DNA from: a virus
Lineage: Duplodnaviria; Caudoviricetes
Direction: 5' to 3' (one strand)
Length of the DNA stretch: 62,021 nucleotides
IMG/VR virus record: IMGVR_UViG_3300012665_000376
Location: 1 to 62,021 of that record
Of this stretch, positions 17,801 to 61,081 are shown piece after piece. Both the position numbers and the translations under genes were made by a program. The notes beneath the pieces are model-generated. The model saw only the letters and a program-made list of their open reading frames with translations, was not told the DNA's origin and searched no databases. Position 1 is the stretch's first letter. Each line of letters starts with the position of its first letter.

Positions 17801-20800
17801 GTACTTTTTGTTGTTTTAATCCACCTCTTGTGGATTCCCCGACAACACCTTGTCCAGCTCCATCAACTCCTCTTCCGACATCTCCTTGTTGAGTATTTTC
17901 TGTACCCCCTTCTTGAACAGGTTTTGCCCAAGTTGGGTCTTTGATTCCTCCTGCAAATTCATCGATTTGTTTTCTTGCTTCATCTATTGATATTTTATTG
18001 TTTGCGTAATTATTCCAAATACTCTCTACTTTAGCTACGTTTTGTTTGCTGTTTTTAAACGTTGCTGTAAATAATCCACGAATAGCTTCCCAAGTAATAC
18101 TTTGCACTTGTCTTGGCAATAAATCAGTTTCTTTTGCGGCTAACTTATAGCCTTCTGCATAAGCGTAATATAATCCTTTTATTCCCAATGGAGAAGAATT
18201 CTTAGTCCCTGTGCCAAAATTTTGCCCTACTTGTTTTGAATTTCCAGACAACGGCATTAATAATGCAGCAGCAATCGCGTGAGTATCCATTGTAACATCT
18301 TGGTCTTTAGACATAGGGTCTATGATGTTATTATAGAAATTCCTAATCTTGTGCATTTCGCCAAGTGACCTAGTAATATTCTCTTGGCTACCATCTAAAT
18401 AGATAGCGTTAGCTTTGTTAATCTCTGTATAAGAACCCCAGGCTACCTTAGCTTTTTCTCCATCATTTTTTACGGCAAGACCCATTACCTGACCATCTGG
18501 ACGTAGTACATCATAATCTTTTGTTACATTAACTTCGTTCCAAAGACGTGTATAATATCCTTTCATTTCATCAGGGACATCATACATTCTTTTTCCCGTT
18601 AACTCTGCTATTGAATCAATTACTCTGTTTGAGTTATCTAGATTTTTATTATATTTATCATTAGCAGAACGCAATTTTTCTTTACTATCTTTTAAAACTT
18701 GTTTAGCAGCAGTAATATCTTGTTTTGTGGATTCTTTATTTTCAGAAACTAGTTCAACATTCTTTTTAGCCGCTTCGTATGCTTTCTTTGATTTATTAAC
18801 TTCTCTTTTTACTGGAGTTAATCCTTCTTTAGCAATTAATTTCTGCTTTTCAACCATCTCCTTACTCATTACTGGATTAGCTTCGTGAGCCATTAATACC
18901 ATTTCAGCCAACCTCACGTTTTGATACCAGTCTTTTTGAGGAGACAATGAAGCCATAACACCTGCAACTTGTTCTTTAGTTATCCCATATTTTTTAGATA
19001 AATCTTGGGCTAAAATATTTGCACCATCATACCACAAAGTAGAAACCTCTTTGTAGTTTTCATTAAAGTTCTCCATTAAATACTCAAGATTGTTAGCAAC
19101 TTCTCTTGAAAAAACATCATATACTTCTTGAGCATCTTCAATTGTTGTAATGTTGCTTTTATTAACAATGCCTGAAACTAAAGGATAGTTTGCTATGATA
19201 TTTGAGTTGGCAATAAATAATTCTGGAGCATTAGCTTTCACATATTCTAATGATAAATCTTCTGCCTCTTGAACTACTTTTTTACCATTCTTGGTAGATA
19301 CAGATAATCCCTTAGAGACTCTATTGCCTGCTCTTGATAATGTTCTAATTTCCTTTACATCAATGTTTTTAACAGATGTAATTTTTTGCTGCCTAAATCC
19401 TGTAACCTCTTGATTTGCTTCAGTATTCCCAATTAATTTCTCTATTCTAGATACATCAATACTTTTACCCGACTGTATTGACCTAGCTAAGTCAGTAAAG
19501 AATTTCATATCTTCTTGAGCAGACGAAGATTCTGGGAATAATTTATCAGCCAATTTCATTAATGGCTGGTTATTCATTTTCTTCGCTACTTTTTGAATGA
19601 ACTCTTTAATAGCCATTCTTATTTTGTGCAATCTACTAGGAGTAAACTTAACGTCTCCTTTCGTTAACATACCCGCTAATTCAGACAAGAATTCTTCTGC
19701 CTGCATATCTACGCCATCTTCTTCGTATTGACCTGCAAATTCTTGCAATCTAGAACGTTGTGGCTCAGGTATAAATGGTAGGATTCTCTCTACCATATTA
19801 GCAAATTCTTTAGGGTTTTGCTTAGCTAAAGGCAATAATACCGCGTGAGTTACTTCGTGTGGAAGTGTTGTCCCAGTTAAGGTATTAATGATATTACCCG
19901 CCGAATCTTTAGATGACTTATTAATGTGTACGTTGCCCGTAGCTGGGTTAAATAATCCTCCAGCACCCAAAGATACCTCGATAGCTCTTTCGCGGCTTAC
20001 ACCCTCGTTAACCAAGCCCTCAATCATAGAGTCTTCGTTATCGTAGATAATCATCTTAGAGTTTGGAGACACTGAGGTTAATGCCTTGTATGCATTAGAT
20101 ATAATAGTCTTGACTTGTGCTCCTAATGTATTAGATATAGGGTTATCTGTGCGTTGTTCAAATTCACTATCAACCTCTACTGCTTGACGCGGCGTTAAAT
20201 TAGTCGTAGGCTCAACTTGTTGAGTTGTAGTTGTTTGCTGTGTTGTAGGACTAACAGTTGGCGCTTTTCTGCCTGCCAATTTAGTCGTCCAATCAAATCC
20301 CATTCCAACGGTTTCTTCTGTAACTGCTTGCTCAAATATTGCATCAGAAACTGTGCCTAATTTGTCTTGCTTAGCTTTTAAAGCTATGTCTAATGCTAAG
20401 TCAGGATTATTAACCTCAAACGTCGTATTGTTTCTGTTGTCTCTTAATACAACACCTGATACATTACCATCCTCATCAAATTTGCTCTCCACAAATTCAG
20501 TAAAGTTTGTATCTATGACAATAGGATTTTTAGCTGCCTTATTTTGTTCGTCTCGTATTTTAGCTTTTTTATTGAAAGAAACTTTAGGCTTCAATATAAC
20601 TTTTCCCGACGGAGTAACTTCTGCAACCGTGTTGGTTACTGTTCCATCTTCTGAAGTGACTGTGACTGCATTTCCTGCCCATCTGCTGTTTGCAACTGAT
20701 TGGGCTGCTCCTTGCCTTTCAACTCTTCCAATTTCTCTAGAACTTTTAGTTGTTTGTCTTTCGGTAACCTCTGTAAAATCAGTTTTTGTTGCAAATTCAT

Positions 20801-54013: not shown

Positions 54014-56023
54014 TTAAAATGGGAATATCTCCCTTATATCGTATATTTTCTGTTTTTGCTCTACTCTTTCACTAAACTTAGACTTGTTAGCTTGTATTAA
54101 CGTGTAACCAGATGCCATCGCGGCGTCAAATTTGGTAGTCTTGTTAATATCGAAAGTTAACCAGTCTTTTAATAATCGCATAAAGATAACCTTTTCTACG
54201 TTCTCTGTAATATAACTTTCTGTTACTTCTGCAATCTGCTGGTGCGTCTTAACCGTAGCCGAGATTCCATACTTACTAGCACCAGGTAGTTTAACTAAAA
54301 ATTTGTCATATCCCCTGTACTCAAAGTATTTAATCAAGCCAACCTTGTTATCCTCGGATAATATCTCGCATCCAAAGAAATGACAAAGCTTAATCATATC
54401 TTCGTAAAATATCTCAGCCTTTTCAGGTCTATTAAGATATTCAACTAAGAACGTCTCACTAAACTCGTCTACCGCATCATATCTTCTATACACATAAGCT
54501 GCACCATCTGACCGCTCTTTACTTGTGGTAATGCTATGGTCAAAGGGGTCAACTGCTATTGCATACTTTTTACTTTCCTTTGGGACTTTACGAGTACCGT
54601 ATTCTTCTACTTGGTTGAAATTAGCGTAGTCATATATGTTAAGTTTCTTGTGAACCAAGAACTTTCCATTGGAAGTCTCGTTAAAGACAACTCTACTATC
54701 ACGCTCTGCTTTTTCCCAAACAAATTCTCCACGCAAATATAAATCTTTTTCAGCAATCCACGATATAGATTCCATCTGTCTGTTCAATGCCATCGCATCA
54801 TACAAACAAGTGTCTGCTTCGCTAAAGAATGCCTCGCCTATTGTAAAAGGGTTTTTGCGTATAAAAGAAGCCAGTGCACGCGGGTCCATCTCTAAAGCAG
54901 CACGTTCTGCTAGATAAAATTCTTTTGCCTTTTCTTCGTCGGCTTGACCAAACTTGTCATAGAACAAAGTCTTATAAGCAGGCATAAAGTATTGGTACAA
55001 TCCTGAACGGGTTCTACCGTTGGCATTCTTCTCGTTCTGATTGGATGCATCCCATAGCATTTTAAATGATTCCCCTCCATCTTCCATCTCCTCGACAGTA
55101 GTGGTATACAAAGCCTTGCCAATAATATTTTCCTCCTGCTGCAGACAGAACTGTAAGACTTGATGTCTGTCGTAGACGTCCACGTTCTTAGTCTTACCTG
55201 CCTCATCGCCTAGGTAGCGATGTAGCTTCATACCGTCATAAGCAAACTTATCAGCCGATTTAAAAGTAATAGATGATTCAAGCTCAATCTTTTCAGCAAA
55301 AATGTCGTCATTTGCACCTCGTTTATTTGTTTTAAAGAATCTTAGTTCTCCCTTAGGGGTCATACCCTTTTCTGTATCGTATATAGGAACAAAGAAATCG
55401 GGCAAGTATTTGAATGGCATAATAACTCCCTTAGCAAATACGTTCTCCTTAGCGTCCTCAAATGTCTTTGATTGGATACCCGCATTCTTATTCTTGCTTC
55501 TAGATGTTAATTCAAAAAGGAATGCACCTGCGCGCATAGTCTTTCCCTGACGACGCTTAGTTACCTCTACCATCCCTAAACAGTTAGGGTCTTGGACACA
55601 GTATTCTAGGAACATAAAAAAGTCCCTATCAGTCATCCTAAAAGAGGGGTAGCCTACGTCAAGTTTCCAATGCACCAAGTAAAAGTAATGTAAGCCAGTA
55701 ATATATGTTGCGTGACCATTGTTGTAAAACCAGAATCCATTAAGACGCCTGTCCCATTCTTGGTTGCGATATTCCTGAAGTTCAGGATTATAATATCCAG
55801 GACTAGCTTTTTGAGCAGCAATCTCTTTCTTACGCTTTATCTCGTAATCTTTAGGTGGTTCTGGTCTTTCCCAATACTGGTAGTCTTTCTTAACAGACCG
55901 CGACATTATTTCACGCTTCTCCCACTCATTAGTTATAATGTTATATACATACCCATTTGGCGGGATGCTAACCGTTATACCATTAATCTCATAAGGTTTC
56001 CCTTTGGCGTGTTTCCTATACAT
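54014..56023 (-). CDS. terL: terminase large subunit
   Basis: KRRQGKT Walker A, YLGDEAGK Walker B, AVDPFD and FDAAMASG nuclease motifs. Confidence 0.9.
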   Translation of the reverse strand: MYRKHAKGKPYEINGITVSIPPNGYVYNIITNEWEKREIMSRSVKKDYQYWERPEPPKDYEIKRKKEIAAQKASPGYYNPELQEYRNQEWDRRLNGFWFYNNGHATYITGLHYFYLVHWKLDVGYPSFRMTDRDFFMFLEYCVQDPNCLGMVEVTKRRQGKTMRAGAFLFELTSRSKNKNAGIQSKTFEDAKENVFAKGVIMPFKYLPDFFVPIYDTEKGMTPKGELRFFKTNKRGANDDIFAEKIELESSITFKSADKFAYDGMKLHRYLGDEAGKTKNVDVYDRHQVLQFCLQQEENIIGKALYTTTVEEMEDGGESFKMLWDASNQNEKNANGRTRSGLYQYFMPAYKTLFYDKFGQADEEKAKEFYLAERAALEMDPRALASFIRKNPFTIGEAFFSEADTCLYDAMALNRQMESISWIAEKDLYLRGEFVWEKAERDSRVVFNETSNGKFLVHKKLNIYDYANFNQVEEYGTRKVPKESKKYAIAVDPFDHSITTSKERSDGAAYVYRRYDAVDEFSETFLVEYLNRPEKAEIFYEDMIKLCHFFGCEILSEDNKVGLIKYFEYRGYDKFLVKLPGASKYGISATVKTHQQIAEVTESYITENVEKVIFMRLLKDWLTFDINKTTKFDAAMASGYTLIQANKSKFSERVEQKQKIYDIREIFPF

Positions 56024-56851: not shown

Positions 56852-57496
56852 CTAGTCTTTAGAGCATAAAATATCGCCCTGGCGCACTGTATAATACTCT
56901 TTTCCCTCTATGGTATTTTTAAAGTTTGAGTTTTTGTTTAAAATTACTAGTGCCCCGCTGTTAACTTTTAACTCATCTGTATTGACTAATGGTTTACCAA
57001 TATGTGCAAGCCTAGCAAACTTAGTAGATGGCTTCTTGTTGATACCAATTACTAGACCTGAAGCCGATGTTATAGCCTCAATCTTTTGACCGTTAACTTC
57101 AACGTGATTAAACTCTTCTTCAACCACTGTTTCACATAAAGTCCAGCCACCAACAGGTAATATATTACCACTCCTAACGATACAAAATACCCAATAATAA
57201 GGTACTTTATAATAGTTCCCGTAGATACAGTTCGTTTCATCAGATGTAGTTAAGTAATGAAAGTAAATAATGTCCCCTACCTGTACTTCCTTTTCAATCT
57301 CAAAGCCCTCTTCGTTGTAAGCTTTTCCATCAGGCACAGCTATTACACGACCATAGATTCTGGCGTACTGCGTAGGATTAAATTCAGGGTCTATATGGAG
57401 CTTTAAATTACCGTATTGGACAGTATCATCCAAAGCAGCACCCACTTCAACCACGACCGTATTTGGTGGCGATTTCTTGATATCGTAAGTAAGCAT
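56852..57496 (-). CDS. co-chaperonin GroES-like protein with two tandem GroES domains
   Basis: GRVIAVP..EVQVGDIIYF, then LPVGGW..SASGLVI..IEGKEYYTVRQGDIL. Confidence 0.75.
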   Translation of the reverse strand: MLTYDIKKSPPNTVVVEVGAALDDTVQYGNLKLHIDPEFNPTQYARIYGRVIAVPDGKAYNEEGFEIEKEVQVGDIIYFHYLTTSDETNCIYGNYYKVPYYWVFCIVRSGNILPVGGWTLCETVVEEEFNHVEVNGQKIEAITSASGLVIGINKKPSTKFARLAHIGKPLVNTDELKVNSGALVILNKNSNFKNTIEGKEYYTVRQGDILCSKD

Positions 57497-57553: not shown

Positions 57554-58091
57554 TAATTACTATCATATGCTTCGTCGGTCAATTTGCTCTAAACGCAGTT
57601 TTTGCACCGTGTGGTTGTAGATTCAGGGTTATATGTGATTGGGCGTGGGTCGCGCGCGAGAACGACAAACGACTTTTGGCGATGGGGTGGGGTCGCATTT
57701 CAGAATCCGAAATCCAAAAATTAGGTCAATGTATTACTGTGATACAATAAACAATTTCCTAATGTATCCTCCTGATACAATGGATCTATATCGGCATTAT
57801 ATTACCGATGTCATCTTCAGCAAGAGAGAAACAATACTCTACTAGTCAAGTAGGGAAATATTTGTACAGAATAATGCCCTCTAGGATAATGTGAGGGGGT
57901 AAATGACCTAGGCGGACTACCCGCCACGCATCCACACCCATAGAAAACACCCCATTTTACTAGCATTCGTTTTAAGGGGTCATATCTTCGATTTAAGACA
58001 CTTTACCCCCTAGAATGTCCATTCTATCCACCTAGAGCGAGATAATGCCTTAGACGCAAAATAGGGGTAATTTTGATGTTAAAAATTCTGC

Positions 58092-58220
58092 TATACGCGT
58101 GTGCGTGTGTGATGTGCGCCTACGCGTGTGTGCTCGCGTGTATGTGCGTGTGTGTGCATACCTGCGCGACGTGTGTACGCTTGCGCGTGTCGTGATGTGC
58201 GCGCAATACGCGTGTGTGCG
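58092..58220. repeat. alternating purine-pyrimidine (GT/GC) tract
   Basis: ~130 nt of mostly (GT)n/(GC)n; TACGCGTGTG three times and GTGATGTGCGC twice. Confidence 0.85.
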
Positions 58221-58299
58221 GTTTCAGTATCTTTTAAAGGGGTTTCTCTTAGAATAGTACAAAAACAGTATATTTTCGTTGTATTATTCTAAGAAAATG

Positions 58300-58332
58300 G
58301 GGATTTCGTCTACACATTTCGGGATTTCGTCT
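58300..58332. repeat. direct repeat upstream of the early promoter
   Basis: GGGATTTCGTCT at 58300-58311 and 58321-58332 (21-bp period). Confidence 0.7.
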
Positions 58333-58361
58333 CATATCAGGGTTATTTTAAGGGGGTGCTA

Positions 58362-58391
58362 TTGTAAATCAAAAAGTTTAGGCAATCTTTG
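58362..58391 (+). promoter_or_regulatory. early promoter candidate
   Basis: TTG (58362-58364), 19-nt spacer, AATCTTTG (one mismatch); the structured RNA begins about 7 nt downstream. Confidence 0.6.
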
Positions 58392-58398
58392 TAATGTC

Positions 58399-58863
58399 AT
58401 CAGCGGGGAAACGTCCTCAAAGGCAAAATATCCACTTTATGTGGGGGTAAAGAGAACACCCTAAATTCTCCCTGTCCCGAAAGAGGGGCATTGCAAGGCA
58501 AGTATACTGAACGCACGGATTGGCTCAGTAAGTAGAACGCCCCACATAGCACCATTACGCTAGGCACTTGGATGAGCAGTTTATCGCTCCAGTGTATAAA
58601 CCTCCCGACCTGATACATACGATGGTCGACTGCGGTAGTCAGCTAGGTTAAACCCGATGCCCCCGCGATATGTGAGCCTCTACTTGCATCCCTAATTGAC
58701 GGAAGGTTAAAAGTTCTGCGCGGTAGAGGGAAGATTTTATGCAAGGTTCTGTGGACTGAACCTGCCCGTCAGCAAAGGCGGTTACAAAAACGCCACTCAT
58801 TCAAGGCTTATGAATACGGCTAGGCAATGGATTGCCAGTGCGGTTCGATTCCGCACCTAGTCG
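58399..58863 (+). ncRNA. large structured non-coding RNA or 5' leader (unidentified)
   Basis: GC-enriched, no + strand ORF, more than 10 nested stems, a pseudoknot and a 3' tRNA-like element. Confidence 0.7.
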
Positions 58864-58882
58864 CTAACTTAAACACACACAA

Positions 58883-59122
58883 ATGAAAGCAACAAAAATT
58901 ACAAGATATTCGCAAGGCGAATACATTGCTGATGTAGAGAATTTAGGGCAAATGTGGGGATTTGATAGATACGAAATTACATTCTATCTAGACAATTGGT
59001 GCGACTTAAAGCTAACTACTAGTATGATTGTAGAGACTACAGAATATTCGTCTGTTACGAATCACATCAAGCAATACTTTAACGAACAAAAAGAAATTAA
59101 ATCAACTATCCTTTCGGTGTAG
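58883..59122 (+). CDS. hypothetical early protein
   Basis: 79 aa; ACACACACAA leader. Confidence 0.7.
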   Translation: MKATKITRYSQGEYIADVENLGQMWGFDRYEITFYLDNWCDLKLTTSMIVETTEYSSVTNHIKQYFNEQKEIKSTILSV

Positions 59123-59131
59123 GTAACCGAA
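59108..59131 (+). promoter_or_regulatory. early-gene hairpin/pseudoknot motif, copy 1
   Basis: ATCCTTTCGGTGTAGGTAACCGAA; TCGGT/ACCGA stem; ATG 10 nt downstream. Confidence 0.8.
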
Positions 59132-59140
59132 TCAAATCTT

Positions 59141-59422
59141 ATGAAATTCAATGTATTAGCAGAAGCAATGTTACAAATCAAGGAGTTAGGCTTAGAGGGT
59201 CAATCATTCACGATGAGTCAGAAAGTATATGAGGACAAGAAAGACGAAAAGTATGAGGTTATAATCATCGAGGTAAGATTTGACCCCGAGTTAATGAAGA
59301 AGTTATCCGCTATTAGCAATCACACTAGCTTCTTCCCATCTACCAATGGCAAAGAGCGCTACTTAGGATTCAATACGATGCGCTCTAGCGAGGGCGACAG
59401 ACTTGACTTCCATCTAGTGTAA
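59141..59422 (+). CDS. hypothetical early protein
   Basis: 93 aa; stop codon lies in hammerhead stem I. Confidence 0.7.
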   Translation: MKFNVLAEAMLQIKELGLEGQSFTMSQKVYEDKKDEKYEVIIIEVRFDPELMKKLSAISNHTSFFPSTNGKERYLGFNTMRSSEGDRLDFHLV

Positions 59423-59465
59423 CTGATGAGTCCTAATGGACGAAACCCCTACGGGGGTCTTACAC
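59417..59465 (+). ncRNA. type I hammerhead ribozyme
   Basis: stem I GTGTAA/TTACAC; core CTGATGA; stem II GTCC-TAAT-GGAC; GAAA; stem III CCCC-TACG-GGGG; GTC cleavage triplet (cut after 59459). Confidence 0.95.
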
Positions 59466-59468
59466 ATT

Positions 59469-59491
59469 ATCCTTGCGGTGTAGGTAACCGC
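59469..59491 (+). promoter_or_regulatory. early-gene hairpin/pseudoknot motif, copy 2
   Basis: ATCCTTGCGGTGTAGGTAACCGC; ATG 10 nt downstream. Confidence 0.8.
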
Positions 59492-59501
59492 GACACACAT
59501 T

Positions 59502-59912
59502 ATGAGAAAATTATTTAATCAAGCAATCGAATTGACTCAAGAAGAAGCAATTAACCACCCACGTCGCGAGTATAACGCCCGCATTTGGAAGCAAGAAATC
59601 GAGCGCTATGCCAAATACAACGGCAAGTTCTACGATTTAGGCAAGGGCAAAAGCGAGTATTCTCAAGGCGAAGTAGGAGTTGTATACGAAATCGAGGGCG
59701 TTCGCCAGTTTAGAGTGGTAGAATATTCGGCAAGCCTTAGCGCTTACGATGGTGTAGGTCGGGTATTCGTATCAGAAGATGGCGTTCATTTTGAGAAATT
59801 TAGAAACGCCGATGGCGATGAAGGTTATATATCCTACCGCAAGAATCTACCATTTTTGCGTAGAATGTGCAATAATTTCCCATCTTTTAACGTAGGCTCT
59901 CCTAGCCTTTAA
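59502..59912 (+). CDS. hypothetical early protein
   Basis: 136-aa ORF. Confidence 0.75.
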   Translation: MRKLFNQAIELTQEEAINHPRREYNARIWKQEIERYAKYNGKFYDLGKGKSEYSQGEVGVVYEIEGVRQFRVVEYSASLSAYDGVGRVFVSEDGVHFEKFRNADGDEGYISYRKNLPFLRRMCNNFPSFNVGSPSL

Positions 59913-60163: not shown

Positions 60164-61081
60164 ATGGCAACTCAAGCAGAATTAATCGACAATATTAATG
60201 ATACAATTATCGCGGGCTTACAAGCTAAGGGCTTGCAATGGTTCAAGCCTTTCAAGGATAGCACCACCTTACAATGGAACGCTATCAGTTCGTCGGGCAA
60301 ACCATACCGCGGTATTAATCAGTTCATCCTATCAGCTAAGGCTATCGACAAAGGATGGGTTAATAAGTGGTACACCTTTAACCAAGTAAGCAAGCTAGAC
60401 GCTCGCGTTAACAAAGGCGAAAAGTCTACAGACGTTTATCTTTGGAAGGTCAACTTTGCGGTAGAAATTGCGGGCAAAGTTCAATATTTCCCACGCATCG
60501 AAGATATCCCATCGCACCTACAAAAGGGGGCTAAGAAAGCGTTTTACCTACAGACATTCAAGGTGTTTTCAATTTCGCAAACGACTTTGCCCCTAGACAC
60601 TCCCGCGCAACCTATCGAGGTTACAGAATTGGAAGCGGACGCACACGCTGAAGCTATCCTAAAGTCTTGGGCTAAAGAGGTAACATTAAAGCATAGTGGT
60701 CTAGGACGCGCTTACTATTCGCCTAGCGGGGACTACATCCATATGCCCGCTAAGACTACAGACCAATGGAAATCTAACGGGGATTATTACAAGGTATTCT
60801 TTCACGAAGCTATCCATAGCACTGGTCATTCGTCACGCCTTAATCGCCTAGATAAAACGGCAAACTTTGGCTCTAGCGAATACTCTAAGGAAGAATTGGT
60901 AGCAGAACTAGGCGCGCTATATTTAGAGGCTATCACGGGCATTCAGACAATCGTCGACGATGTCAAGAATTCGCAAGCATACATCAACGGATGGATTAGC
61001 AAACTAAAGTCTGACCCTAAGTTGATTATGAGTGCATCTACCAAGGCACACGAAGCAGTAGACTTAATTCTTTCAAAGTAA
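60164..61081 (+). CDS. ardC: ArdC-family antirestriction protein (ssDNA-binding domain plus zincin-like domain)
   Basis: WFKPF...PYRGIN...WYTFNQ...VNKGEK; AYYSP..DYIHMP; HEAIHSTGH..RLNR..YSKEELVAE. Confidence 0.9.
   Translation: MATQAELIDNINDTIIAGLQAKGLQWFKPFKDSTTLQWNAISSSGKPYRGINQFILSAKAIDKGWVNKWYTFNQVSKLDARVNKGEKSTDVYLWKVNFAVEIAGKVQYFPRIEDIPSHLQKGAKKAFYLQTFKVFSISQTTLPLDTPAQPIEVTELEADAHAEAILKSWAKEVTLKHSGLGRAYYSPSGDYIHMPAKTTDQWKSNGDYYKVFFHEAIHSTGHSSRLNRLDKTANFGSSEYSKEELVAELGALYLEAITGIQTIVDDVKNSQAYINGWISKLKSDPKLIMSASTKAHEAVDLILSK

What the first reader, a model, noticed from the sequence alone, without database searches (positions are those of the whole stretch)
58399..58815. Large (~465 nt with its 3' element) multi-domain structured RNA as the first early transcript
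Seen: it begins about 7 nt after a promoter box and lacks a + strand ORF. Domain 1 is closed by GCGGGG (58403)/CCCCGC (58661). It contains TATGTGGGG (58438)/CCCCACATA (58540) enclosing four hairpins (GAGAA/TTCTC, TGTCCC-GAAAGA-GGGGCA, TTGC/GCAA, TACTGA/TCAGTA), a CACTTGGA/TCCAGTG arm, and an AACCT/AGGTT junction with two hairpins. Domain 2 has CCTCTAC (58677)/GTAGAGG (58723), whose loop TGACGG (58697) pairs with CCGTCA (58766) as a pseudoknot, plus AGGTTC/GAACCT, GGCG/CGCC and ATTCA/TGAAT. Established: phages encode large ornate RNAs of unknown function (GOLLD, ROOL). I do not recognise this as RNase P, tmRNA or a group I/II intron. Inference: possibly a new large phage ncRNA class acting in anti-defence decoy, antitermination or scaffolding roles.
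Basis: partly seen in the sequence, partly recalled or inferred. Interest (0 to 1): 0.88.

Follow-up and report, generated by a model that had tools for sequence, protein, structure and literature searches.

The report
Phage early RNA ending in mini-tRNA
The gene-free stretch behind this water phage's first early promoter encodes a real, uncatalogued folded RNA that ends in a stripped-down tRNA look-alike, which probably tells host tRNA-trimming enzymes where to cut it free; what the RNA does is still unknown.

Summary
Window 58399-58863 (+) is non-coding and follows a conserved promoter. It matches no Rfam family, and ARAGORN finds no tRNA or tmRNA.

The fold is no more stable than shuffles (z -0.58), so support is comparative only.

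I found 20 related units in one clade of uncultured aquatic phages. The nearest cultured kin are Flavobacterium and Cellulophaga phages. The bodies fall into three families, and the window's has five members.

- **tRNA-like element, 58818-58862:** 9 of 13 pairs show compensatory change.
- **3' module of three hairpins, 58744-58815:** 8 of 13 pairs, plus a newly proposed 3-bp pseudoknot.
several, including CCTCTAC/GTAGAGG.
the closing helix, GGCG/CGCC and the pseudoknot. A covarying local helix at 58631-58667 competes with the closing helix.

In relatives, similar mini-tRNAs or hammerheads follow early stop codons. I read the element as a processing signal. No expression or cleavage data exist.

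This scan's unchecked AI notes record the same RNA in another genome and mini-tRNA punctuation in other phages.

The parts
58300..58335 (+). Two direct copies of GGGATTTCGTC(T)(A/C)-type boxes upstream of the promoter (operator-like)
   Evidence: Read. The same boxes are kept, in 2-3 copies, upstream of the promoter in relatives (alignment, sequences). Their function was not tested.
58362..58391 (+). Promoter-like pair: TTG (58362-58364), 19-nt spacer, AATCTTTG (58384-58391)
   Evidence: The position and the ...TTTG box are conserved in all aligned units. That it fits the Bacteroidota -33/-7 promoter type is recalled knowledge, not a tool result. The sigma-70 scan does not cover this promoter type.
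58405..58418 (+). 5'-terminal hairpin GGGGA-AACG-TCCTC
Evidence: Predicted in every single-sequence fold. L029 has a different hairpin (GGAGGT/ATCTCC) at the same place.
58438..58548 (+). 5' domain: helix TATGTGGGG/CCCCACATA enclosing hairpins GAGAA/TTCTC, TGTCCC/GGGGCA and TACTGA/TCAGTA
   Evidence: TGTCCC/GGGGCA becomes TGCACC/GGTGCA in L158 (one compensatory pair, plus one U-G changed to C-G). The long helix has one uncompensated mismatch in L008, L138 and L158. The interior is replaced by unrelated sequence in L029.
58565..58594 (+). Variable-length arm CACT(T)GG.../...CCAGTG
   Evidence: The base CACT/AGTG is kept in 5 of 5 sequences. The distal part is a different helix in L138 and is reduced to a 4-nt loop in L029.
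58606..58628 (+). Hairpin CGACC - 13-nt loop - GGTCG
   Evidence: Invariant in 5 of 5 sequences of the window's family, so uninformative for covariation. Predicted in all single-sequence folds.
58631..58667 (+).
   Evidence: 100% of cells paired, with 2 compensatory pairs: G-C to A-U in L158 and, at another pair, in L029. Found independently in the folds of WIN, L158 and L029.
58677..58729 (+). Helix CCTCTAC/GTAGAGG enclosing a conserved loop
   Evidence: L029 has CCATAAA/TTTATGG at the same place, seen in the sequences and its fold. MAFFT misaligns it, so one search counts it as partly broken.
58744..58815 (+). Conserved 3' module: H1 58744-58749/58758-58763; H2 CCGTC 58766-58770 / GGCGG 58777-58781; A-rich single strand; H3 ATTCA 58799-58803 / TGAAT 58811-58815; proposed pseudoknot 58792-58794 with 58805-58807
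   Evidence: In 10 sequences of two body families, 100% of cells pair and 8 of 13 pairs show compensatory change; slid controls reach at most 47%. Pseudoknot: 3 pairs, all paired, one C-G to G-C swap in 3 related sequences. The covariance model R1 also finds the module in L007 (37.5 bits) and L018 (27.9 bits) of the third family.
58818..58863 (+). tRNA-like minihelix: acceptor GGCTAGG/CCTAGTC, 14-nt link containing GG, T arm TGCGG-TTCGATT-CCGCA, discriminator G, then CTA
   Evidence: In 18 type-A copies, 93.6% of cells pair and 9 of 13 pairs show compensatory change; slid controls reach at most 49%. MFE z is -2.53. ARAGORN calls no tRNA. The base after the stem plus C-C/T-A is present in 15 of 18 copies.
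58883..59122 (+). First early ORF (79 aa), 20 nt after the tRNA-like element
   Evidence: There is no terminator-like site on the + strand between the RNA and this ORF, so co-transcription is inferred.
59417..59465 (+). Type I hammerhead overlapping the stop codon of ORF 59141-59422 (context, not part of the RNA)
   Evidence: Rfam RF00163 scores 31.5 bits (gathering score 34), E 1.3e-5. Homologous copies pass the gathering score in L109, L009, L138 and L158.

Best explanation
58399-58817 is the body of a phage non-coding RNA, made as the first ~420 nt of the early polycistronic transcript from a Bacteroidota-type promoter. It is modular. The 5' part is variable and exchangeable. The middle part is conserved within the window's family. 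The ~70-nt 3' module (three hairpins plus a small pseudoknot) is shared across families. Directly behind it, at 58818-58862, sits a mimic of the acceptor/T-arm half of a tRNA, with a GG-containing link in place of the D, anticodon and variable arms. I infer that host RNase P cuts at 58817/58818 and that RNase Z or 3' trimming acts after 58863. This would release the folded RNA, whose 3' end is capped by the hairpin and pseudoknot, from the downstream mRNA. Elsewhere in these operons, similar mini-tRNAs or hammerhead ribozymes appear to separate the small early ORFs in the same way. Shown: non-coding status, conservation, covariation, the position of the elements, and absence from Rfam. Inferred: transcription start, cleavage, and release. 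The role of the freed RNA is a guess. Because it is the earliest product, is dispensable (some relatives lack it), is swapped as a cassette between near-identical backbones, and shares an operon with an ArdC-like anti-restriction gene, I favour a trans-acting host-takeover or anti-defence RNA.
For: - **Non-coding:**. One-base deletions at 58403 and 58495 in near-identical relatives would also frameshift the 72-aa minus-strand ORF at 58400-58618.
- **No catalogued family:**
- **Strand:** G-U pairs in supported helices would be A-C on the other strand, so the + strand is the RNA.
- **tRNA-like element:** covariation. Position 1-72 is G-C in 18 of 18 copies.
- **3' module:**; pseudoknot; module found in a third family by model R1.
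- **Window's family:** 15 of 80 pairs of the revised model show compensatory change, against 3.2 +/- 1.6 in shuffles and 0-5 in slid controls.
- **Other families:** RNAalifold gives 14 of 39 and 16 of 37 pairs with compensatory change.
- **Same slot for different processing elements:** in 4 of 4 hammerhead and 4 of 4 type-B mini-tRNA cases examined, the element starts within about 10 nt of a stop codon. In the seven examples printed, it is followed by a hairpin before the next ATG. L029 carries six type-B copies between consecutive ORFs.
- **Accessory nature:** 4 of the 8 relatives inspected go straight from promoter to ORF.
- **Operon content:** ArdC-like gene at 60164-61081.
Against: - **Thermodynamics:** stability is unremarkable for the whole RNA and for all body domains.
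- **Thin sampling:** the window's family has five sequences, three of them nearly identical, so the 5' third (58399-58540) rests on L158 alone.
- **No functional data:** no RNA-seq run holds the region, and no cleavage has been shown.
- **Helix length:** the coaxial helix is often 13 bp rather than the 12 bp of a tRNA, and its effect on RNase P is unknown.
- **Module position:** in L007 and L018 the conserved 3' module lies about 75 nt upstream of the tRNA-like element, so it is not simply a 3' cap.
- **Trans-acting role:** nothing here tests it.
- **Narrow spread:** the family was found only in one clade.
Confidence: 0.55

Rival explanations
1. The region is a cis-acting 5' leader of the early operon, not a released RNA. 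It would modify the transcribing polymerase (processive antitermination, as with put or boxA-type leaders) or control the stability and translation of the downstream mRNA. The tRNA-like element would then act as a stabiliser or insulator.
For: The RNA lies between the promoter and the first ORF, with no terminator-like site between them. The third body family has an invariant 9-nt motif that I recall as resembling the rRNA-operon boxA element. Unchecked notes from this scan report boxA-like leaders in other phage early RNAs.
Against: The window's own RNA has no such motif. In its family the corresponding spot varies. In the third family the motif is predicted to be base-paired. A cleavage signal right behind the leader fits poorly with put-type action, which as I recall needs the RNA to stay attached to the polymerase. 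Relatives without the leader keep the same promoter and operon.
Confidence: 0.2
2. The functional product is the mini-tRNA itself. It would be a decoy or competitor for host factors that recognise the acceptor/T-arm elbow, such as tRNA-targeting defence nucleases, the CCA-adding enzyme or modification enzymes. The upstream body would be its precursor or expression leader.
For: The element keeps tRNA hallmarks beyond what a cut site needs: G1-C72 in 18 of 18 copies, a canonical T loop in 14 of 18 (TTCGATT or TTCGAAT), GG in the link, and a base plus C-C/T-A tail in 15 of 18. L007 and L018 add a further covarying arm.
Against: There is no anticodon arm, so it cannot decoy anticodon nucleases. 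Hammerheads occupy the same kind of slot as the type-B copies, which points to cleavage as the shared role. The upstream body has its own conserved, covarying structure, which a mere leader would not need.
Confidence: 0.12
3. It is not an RNA gene. The region would be a DNA-level control region (origin, regulator binding sites, or a tRNA-fragment attachment site), or chance inverted repeats in an intergenic spacer.
For: The MFE is no better than shuffles. The region lies between divergent operons, next to repeats (58080-58220 and 58300-58335). Fragments of tRNA 3' halves are common phage attachment sites (recalled).
Against: Compensatory changes keep pairing in many helices. G-U pairs are strand-specific. 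Hairpins vary in length at fixed positions. The 5' acceptor strand covaries with the 3' strand, which an attachment-site fragment would not require.
Confidence: 0.05

Closest known systems
MALAT1 / MEN-beta with mascRNA (RNase P-made 3' end of a long non-coding RNA)
   Same: A long structured non-coding RNA is followed directly by a tRNA mimic. The 3' end of the RNA is expected to be made by RNase P cutting 5' of the mimic, and a compact structure (here hairpin H3 plus a small pseudoknot) sits at the new 3' end.
   Different: That case is eukaryotic and nuclear. mascRNA is a cloverleaf with an anticodon-like arm, and protection there comes from a triple helix. Here cleavage is only inferred, and the RNA heads a phage mRNA. 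This comparison is recalled; I read no paper on it.
t-elements of plant mitochondria and the mitochondrial tRNA-punctuation model (PMC1920247; seen only as a search listing with the start of the abstract)
   Same: tRNA-like structures without decoding function lie at transcript ends and act as signals for tRNA-processing endonucleases.
   Different: That is an organelle system. Here the elements lie in a phage early operon, come in two sequence types (8+5 and 7+6 bp), and share their slot with hammerheads.
Hammerhead ribozymes flanking genes in prophage polycistrons (Perreault et al. 2011, PMC3088659; passages read)
   Same: Self-cleaving elements sit between genes of phage-derived operons, including around an anti-restriction gene. 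That paper shows cleavage of the native polycistronic RNAs.
   Different: Those operons use ribozymes only. They have no tRNA mimic and no large leading non-coding RNA.
GOLLD and ROOL large ornate RNAs (Rfam)
   Same: They are large, phage-associated structured RNAs of unknown function. As I recall, they often lie beside tRNA genes.
   Different: There is no match to either covariance model. This RNA is shorter (250-480 nt), shares no motifs with them, and is confined to one clade. Their published structures are recalled and were not read here.
tmRNA tRNA-like domain
   Same: An acceptor stem plus T arm, with a D-loop-like single strand containing GG and no anticodon arm.
   Different: In tmRNA the two acceptor strands are the 5' and 3' ends of the molecule, with the body between them. 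Here both strands lie 3' of the body. There is no tag reading frame, no G3-U70, and no ARAGORN call, permuted forms included.
Bacterial Y RNAs (YrlA) (PMC4201824; seen as a listing with the start of the abstract)
   Same: A non-coding RNA carrying a tRNA-mimicking module, sometimes phage-encoded.
   Different: The YrlA module is internal and paired with a Ro-binding stem. No Ro60-like gene appeared among the early genes I checked, and there was no Rfam hit.

Membership tests
Any Rfam 15 family (including GOLLD, ROOL, RNase P RNA, tmRNA, 6S, group I/II introns, riboswitches) | Covariance-model score at or above the family's gathering threshold | tested here: not met
   There were 0 hits in the whole window. 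In E-value mode over 58000-59100 and 58380-59520, nothing overlaps 58412-58870; the only hits are chance miRNA- and snoRNA-like matches upstream (one reaches to 58411 on the minus strand) and the hammerhead at 59417. In 17 related loci the only hits were 4 hammerheads.
tRNA | Cloverleaf with D arm, anticodon arm, T arm and acceptor stem | tested here: not met
   ARAGORN finds 0 genes in the window and in 24 related upstream regions. Only 14 nt lie between the acceptor stem and the T arm.
tRNA-like minihelix (acceptor/T-arm mimic; t-element or mascRNA-type signal) | Coaxial acceptor stem plus T stem with a T-loop, kept by compensatory change | tested here: met
   Type A: 18 copies, 93.6% of cells paired, 9 of 13 pairs compensatory. 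Type B: 12 copies, 100% paired, 5 of 13 compensatory.
tRNA-like minihelix (acceptor/T-arm mimic; t-element or mascRNA-type signal) | Cleavage by RNase P at the 5' side and by RNase Z or trimming at the 3' side | not testable with these tools
   No RNA run was listed, so no RNA ends could be mapped.
tmRNA (standard or permuted) | Acceptor strands formed by the two RNA ends or pieces, a tag reading frame, and alanine identity | tested here: not met
   ARAGORN, which also seeks permuted tmRNA, finds none. Both acceptor strands lie 3' of the body. Pair 3-70 is C-G in the window.
New family proposed here (early RNA with 3' module H1-H2-pseudoknot-H3 plus type-A mini-tRNA) | Match to model R1 immediately upstream of a type-A mini-tRNA and downstream of the early promoter | tested here: met
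   Window 58744-58815 scores 81.1 bits, E 1.4e-16. This is by construction, because the window is in the seed. Independent hits come from L007 and L018.
Hammerhead type I (neighbouring element at 59417-59465) | Rfam RF00163 gathering score of 34 bits | tested here: inconclusive
   The window copy scores 31.5 bits, E 1.3e-5, and aligns over the whole model. Homologues in L109, L009, L138 and L158 score 34.4-39.2 bits.

The most novel reading that the evidence does not exclude
These are a new class of RNA-only phage early effectors. In this reading, each is a modular folded RNA matured by the host's own tRNA-processing enzymes, which makes it the fastest product a phage can deploy. Its exchangeable 5' domains would be specificity modules in an arms race with host defence or transcription machinery, and the conserved 3' pseudoknot module would be the common stabilising or effector core. 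The same phages would have adopted tRNA punctuation, as mitochondria do, to cut their early operons into pieces.
Probability: 0.2. Interest if true: 0.85.

Novelty: new variant of a known kind. Interest (0 to 1): 0.62.

Why it matters
If the reading holds, three things follow.

- **A new RNA family.** Aquatic Flavobacteriia-type phages would carry an uncatalogued family of 250-480-nt structured RNAs as their very first gene product.
- **A new processing route for phage RNA.** A bacterial virus would mature a long non-coding RNA by the route known from MALAT1 and mascRNA, and from mitochondrial tRNA punctuation, interchangeably with hammerhead ribozymes.
- **A testable question.** It makes a concrete question testable: how phages of hosts that initiate translation without Shine-Dalgarno pairing turn one early transcript into many defined RNAs.

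It also gives annotation pipelines a signature to look for: promoter, ORF-free body, then an acceptor/T-arm minihelix that tRNA finders reject.

Tried and rejected
**Searches for a known family or close relatives**
- Rfam, both thresholds, on the window and on 17 related loci: no family for the body.
- ARAGORN for tRNA or tmRNA: none.
- blastn (distant mode) of 58300-58900 against 50,697 phage records: no match.
- Single-sequence thermodynamics: not informative.

**Attempts to enlarge the family**
- IMG/VR scans with a motif of the window's family (2 contigs besides the window), a motif of the third family (7 contigs) and the type-B mini-tRNA (7 contigs) returned only contigs already in hand.
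- The metagenome scan gave 73 stretches. Six are this RNA; the other 67 are unrelated, among them real tRNA genes.
- Among 185,579 species genomes there was no relative of the GroES-like neighbour and no type-B element.

**Expression**
- No RNA holder was listed.
- Contigs of three DNA runs, laid on the region, were the L008/L138-type variants and added no new diversity. The fourth run laid nothing.

**Other checks**
- Nearest cultured phages (Elemovirus, TerL 31% identical): one genome inspected, with no mini-tRNA.
- Coding potential on either strand and under two alternative codes: rejected.
- Pairing of the conserved single strand with upstream segments, pairing of the body's GCTAGG copies with the acceptor stem, and a CRISPR-repeat-like reading were checked by eye and dropped, because relatives showed no consistent complementarity.
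- The boxA lead from earlier notes: the window's RNA has no such motif. For the third family it rests on recall only.
- Literature searches found no description of this RNA or of tRNA-like punctuation in phage operons. Supplements were not consulted.

Full report
**Setting**

The window is a whole, 97%-complete virus record of 62 kb. Structural and packaging genes run on the minus strand up to a GroES-like gene (56852-57496) and the large terminase (54014-56023). Small early ORFs, an ArdC-like anti-restriction gene, a DnaB-type helicase and a nuclease run on the plus strand from 58883 and on around the record ends.

The finding lies in the divergent gap between the two blocks. The nearest cultured phages are Flavobacterium Elemovirus and Cellulophaga phages, with terminase only 31% identical. 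DNA runs that hold parts of the region are labelled lake, freshwater, estuary and marine metagenomes.

**The observation**

No plus-strand ORF with a start codon of 30 aa or more lies in 58465-58882. Stop-to-stop frames stay at 58 aa or less, and two alternative codes open nothing that spans the region.

A TTG (58362-58364), a 19-nt spacer and AATCTTTG (58384-58391) end 7-8 nt before 58399. This arrangement is kept in the relatives. That it is the Bacteroidota promoter type is my recalled knowledge.

MFE z is -0.58 for the whole RNA. By domain it is -1.41, +0.24 and -1.28 for the three body parts; only the 3' element stands out, at -2.53. Rfam gives nothing, and ARAGORN gives no tRNA or tmRNA.

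**Relatives**

- The GroES-like neighbour fetched 23 loci and the terminase 78.
- blastn of 58299-58900 found the whole RNA in only 1 of the 23 loci (L008, 95.7% identical). Others shared just the promoter-proximal 100 nt or the last ~100 nt.
- A pattern built on the 3' hairpin plus T loop found one more IMG/VR contig (L029). It also found 6 true copies among 73 metagenome stretches.

Altogether I have 20 distinct units (coordinates):
- five of the window's family: WIN, L008, L138, L158, L029
- seven of a shorter second family
- seven of a third family
- one short odd form (L012)

Four of the eight relatives inspected have no RNA at all and go from promoter to ORF. Further motif scans returned only the same contigs, and bacterial and archaeal genomes held nothing. 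The family is therefore real, but rare and clade-bound.

**The 3' element**

58818-58862 is an acceptor stem (GGCTAGG/CCTAGTC) stacked on a T arm (TGCGG-TTCGATT-CCGCA). A 14-nt link containing GG joins them, and there is no anticodon arm.

- **Type A, 18 copies:** 93.6% of cells pair and 9 of 13 pairs show compensatory change; slid controls stay at 49% or below.
- **tRNA hallmarks:** position 1-72 is always G-C. The tail after the stem is a base plus CCA (4 copies) or CTA (11 copies), so 15 of 18 in all.
- **Type B, 12 copies:** this second, more uniform type has a 7-bp acceptor and a 6-bp T stem. It pairs in 100% of cells, with 5 of 13 pairs compensatory.

**Context of the mini-tRNAs**

Type-B copies sit between early ORFs, six of them in a row in L029. 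The window has a type I hammerhead at 59417-59465 (31.5 bits, E 1.3e-5), and homologues in four relatives pass the Rfam threshold.

In 4 of 4 hammerhead cases and 4 of 4 type-B cases examined, the element starts within about 10 nt of a stop codon. The preceding ORFs are unrelated to each other. In the seven examples printed, a short hairpin before the next ATG follows the element.

Two different RNA devices in one architectural slot point to cleavage as the shared job. Hammerheads flanking genes of prophage operons, including an anti-restriction gene, do cut their polycistronic RNAs (PMC3088659, passages read). By analogy, I infer that the type-A element separates the non-coding body from the first mRNA.

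**The body: the 3' module**

The best-supported part is 58744-58815: hairpin H1, hairpin H2 (CCGTC/GGCGG), an A-rich single strand, and hairpin H3 (ATTCA/TGAAT, with a conserved loop).

- In 10 sequences of two families, every cell pairs and 8 of 13 pairs show compensatory change.
- The loop bases 58805-58807 can pair with 58792-58794, giving a compact H-type pseudoknot. The third pair is C-G in seven sequences and G-C in the three of the window's lineage. That is one evolutionary event, so it is suggestive only.
- A covariance model of the module finds it, with new compensatory changes, inside two members of the third family (37.5 and 27.9 bits). The three families are therefore related.

Both of those break in L029.

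**The body: upstream of the module**

Evidence here comes from only about three independent sequences.

Supported:
- TGTCCC/GGGGCA, which becomes TGCACC/GGTGCA in L158
- the CACT...AGTG arm, whose distal part is a different helix in L138 and a tetraloop in L029
- CCTCTAC/GTAGAGG, which is CCATAAA/TTTATGG in L029
- an extra hairpin inserted in L029

Revised:
- It also competes with a local helix at 58631-58635 / 58663-58667, which pairs in all five sequences and has two compensatory pairs.

Untestable or doubtful:
- the CGACC hairpin, which is invariant
- TTGC/GCAA
- AACCT/AGGTT
- the interior of the 5' domain, which L029 replaces wholesale

On my revised model, 15 of 80 pairs show compensatory change, against 3.2 +/- 1.6 in shuffles.

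**Mechanism**

- **Shown:** a conserved, covarying, non-coding, plus-strand structure placed between an early promoter and the first ORF, and ending in a tRNA-half mimic.
- **Inferred:** transcription from about 58399; co-transcription with the ORFs, since no terminator-like site intervenes; RNase P cleavage at 58817/58818; and 3' processing after 58863. This would free a ~420-nt RNA whose 3' end is the H3 and pseudoknot structure.
- **Guess:** a trans-acting host-takeover or anti-defence role. The grounds are first position in the operon, dispensability, cassette-like exchange between backbones that are about 90% or more identical, and an ArdC-like gene in the operon.

The main rival is a cis-acting leader, for example one acting in antitermination. 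A boxA-like motif that I recall is invariant in the third family, but it is absent from the window's RNA.

**Comparison and novelty**

The RNA is not a member of any Rfam family. In logic it is closest to MALAT1-mascRNA and to mitochondrial t-elements (PMC1920247, listing only), combined with hammerhead-punctuated prophage operons.

Four literature searches found no description of it. Unchecked AI notes from this scan record:
- the same ~420-nt RNA in another genome
- mini-tRNA and hammerhead punctuation in other phage genomes (15 findings matched that query, in at least 13 genomes)
- another large early RNA that ends in an anticodon-less tRNA look-alike

I tested the punctuation claim on this clade myself, but I did not test those other genomes.

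**Verdict**

This is a real, uncatalogued, modular structured RNA with a well-supported tRNA-like 3' element and 3' module. Function and processing are unproven.

Noticed in passing
window 59417-59465: A type I hammerhead overlaps the stop codon of ORF 59141-59422. It scores 31.5 bits against a gathering score of 34. Homologues in four relatives pass the threshold.
   Followed up: partly
window 59105-59130 and 59466-59491: A recurrent hairpin motif (CC-TT-CGGT-GTAGGTA-ACCG type) lies 8-12 nt before early start codons. In relatives it directly follows a mini-tRNA or a hammerhead, so it may serve as a 5' cap for the processed mRNAs.
   Followed up: partly
window 58080-58220: An alternating GT/GC-rich repeat tract lies between the divergent operons. 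It is the only part of the region that draws (chance, sub-threshold) Rfam miRNA hits, and similar tracts occur in several relatives.
   Followed up: no
window 58300-58335: Two GGGATTTCGTC-type boxes lie just upstream of the early promoter. They are conserved in 2-3 copies in relatives, including those that lack the RNA, which suggests an operator for a regulator.
   Followed up: no
L029 421-2668 (minus strand): Six nearly identical type-B mini-tRNAs follow six consecutive early ORFs. Each is followed by a small hairpin and an A-rich leader.
   Followed up: partly
L007 2826-2898 and L018 2766-2838 (minus strand): These type-A mini-tRNAs carry an extra covarying 5-bp stem with a 14-nt loop in the link, which makes them closer to a full tRNA. 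ARAGORN still called none in the L007 upstream region.
   Followed up: no
L012 3006-3062 (minus strand): A short (~210-nt) form of the early RNA ends in a minihelix whose T loop is non-canonical (CTCGCAA).
   Followed up: no
L007, L018, L022, L054, L055, L006 (third body family): An invariant GTTCTTTGA motif is predicted to pair with an upstream CAAAGGAT. I recall it as resembling the boxA antitermination element of rRNA operons; this was not tested.
   Followed up: no
window 60164-61081: An ArdC-like anti-restriction protein (ArdC N-terminal domain plus zincin metallopeptidase domain) is encoded in the same early operon.
   Followed up: partly
L191 (NC_055853.1) about 18335-18956: The cultured Flavobacterium Elemovirus has a largely ORF-free stretch at its own divergent junction. 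It holds no mini-tRNA and was not analysed further.
   Followed up: no
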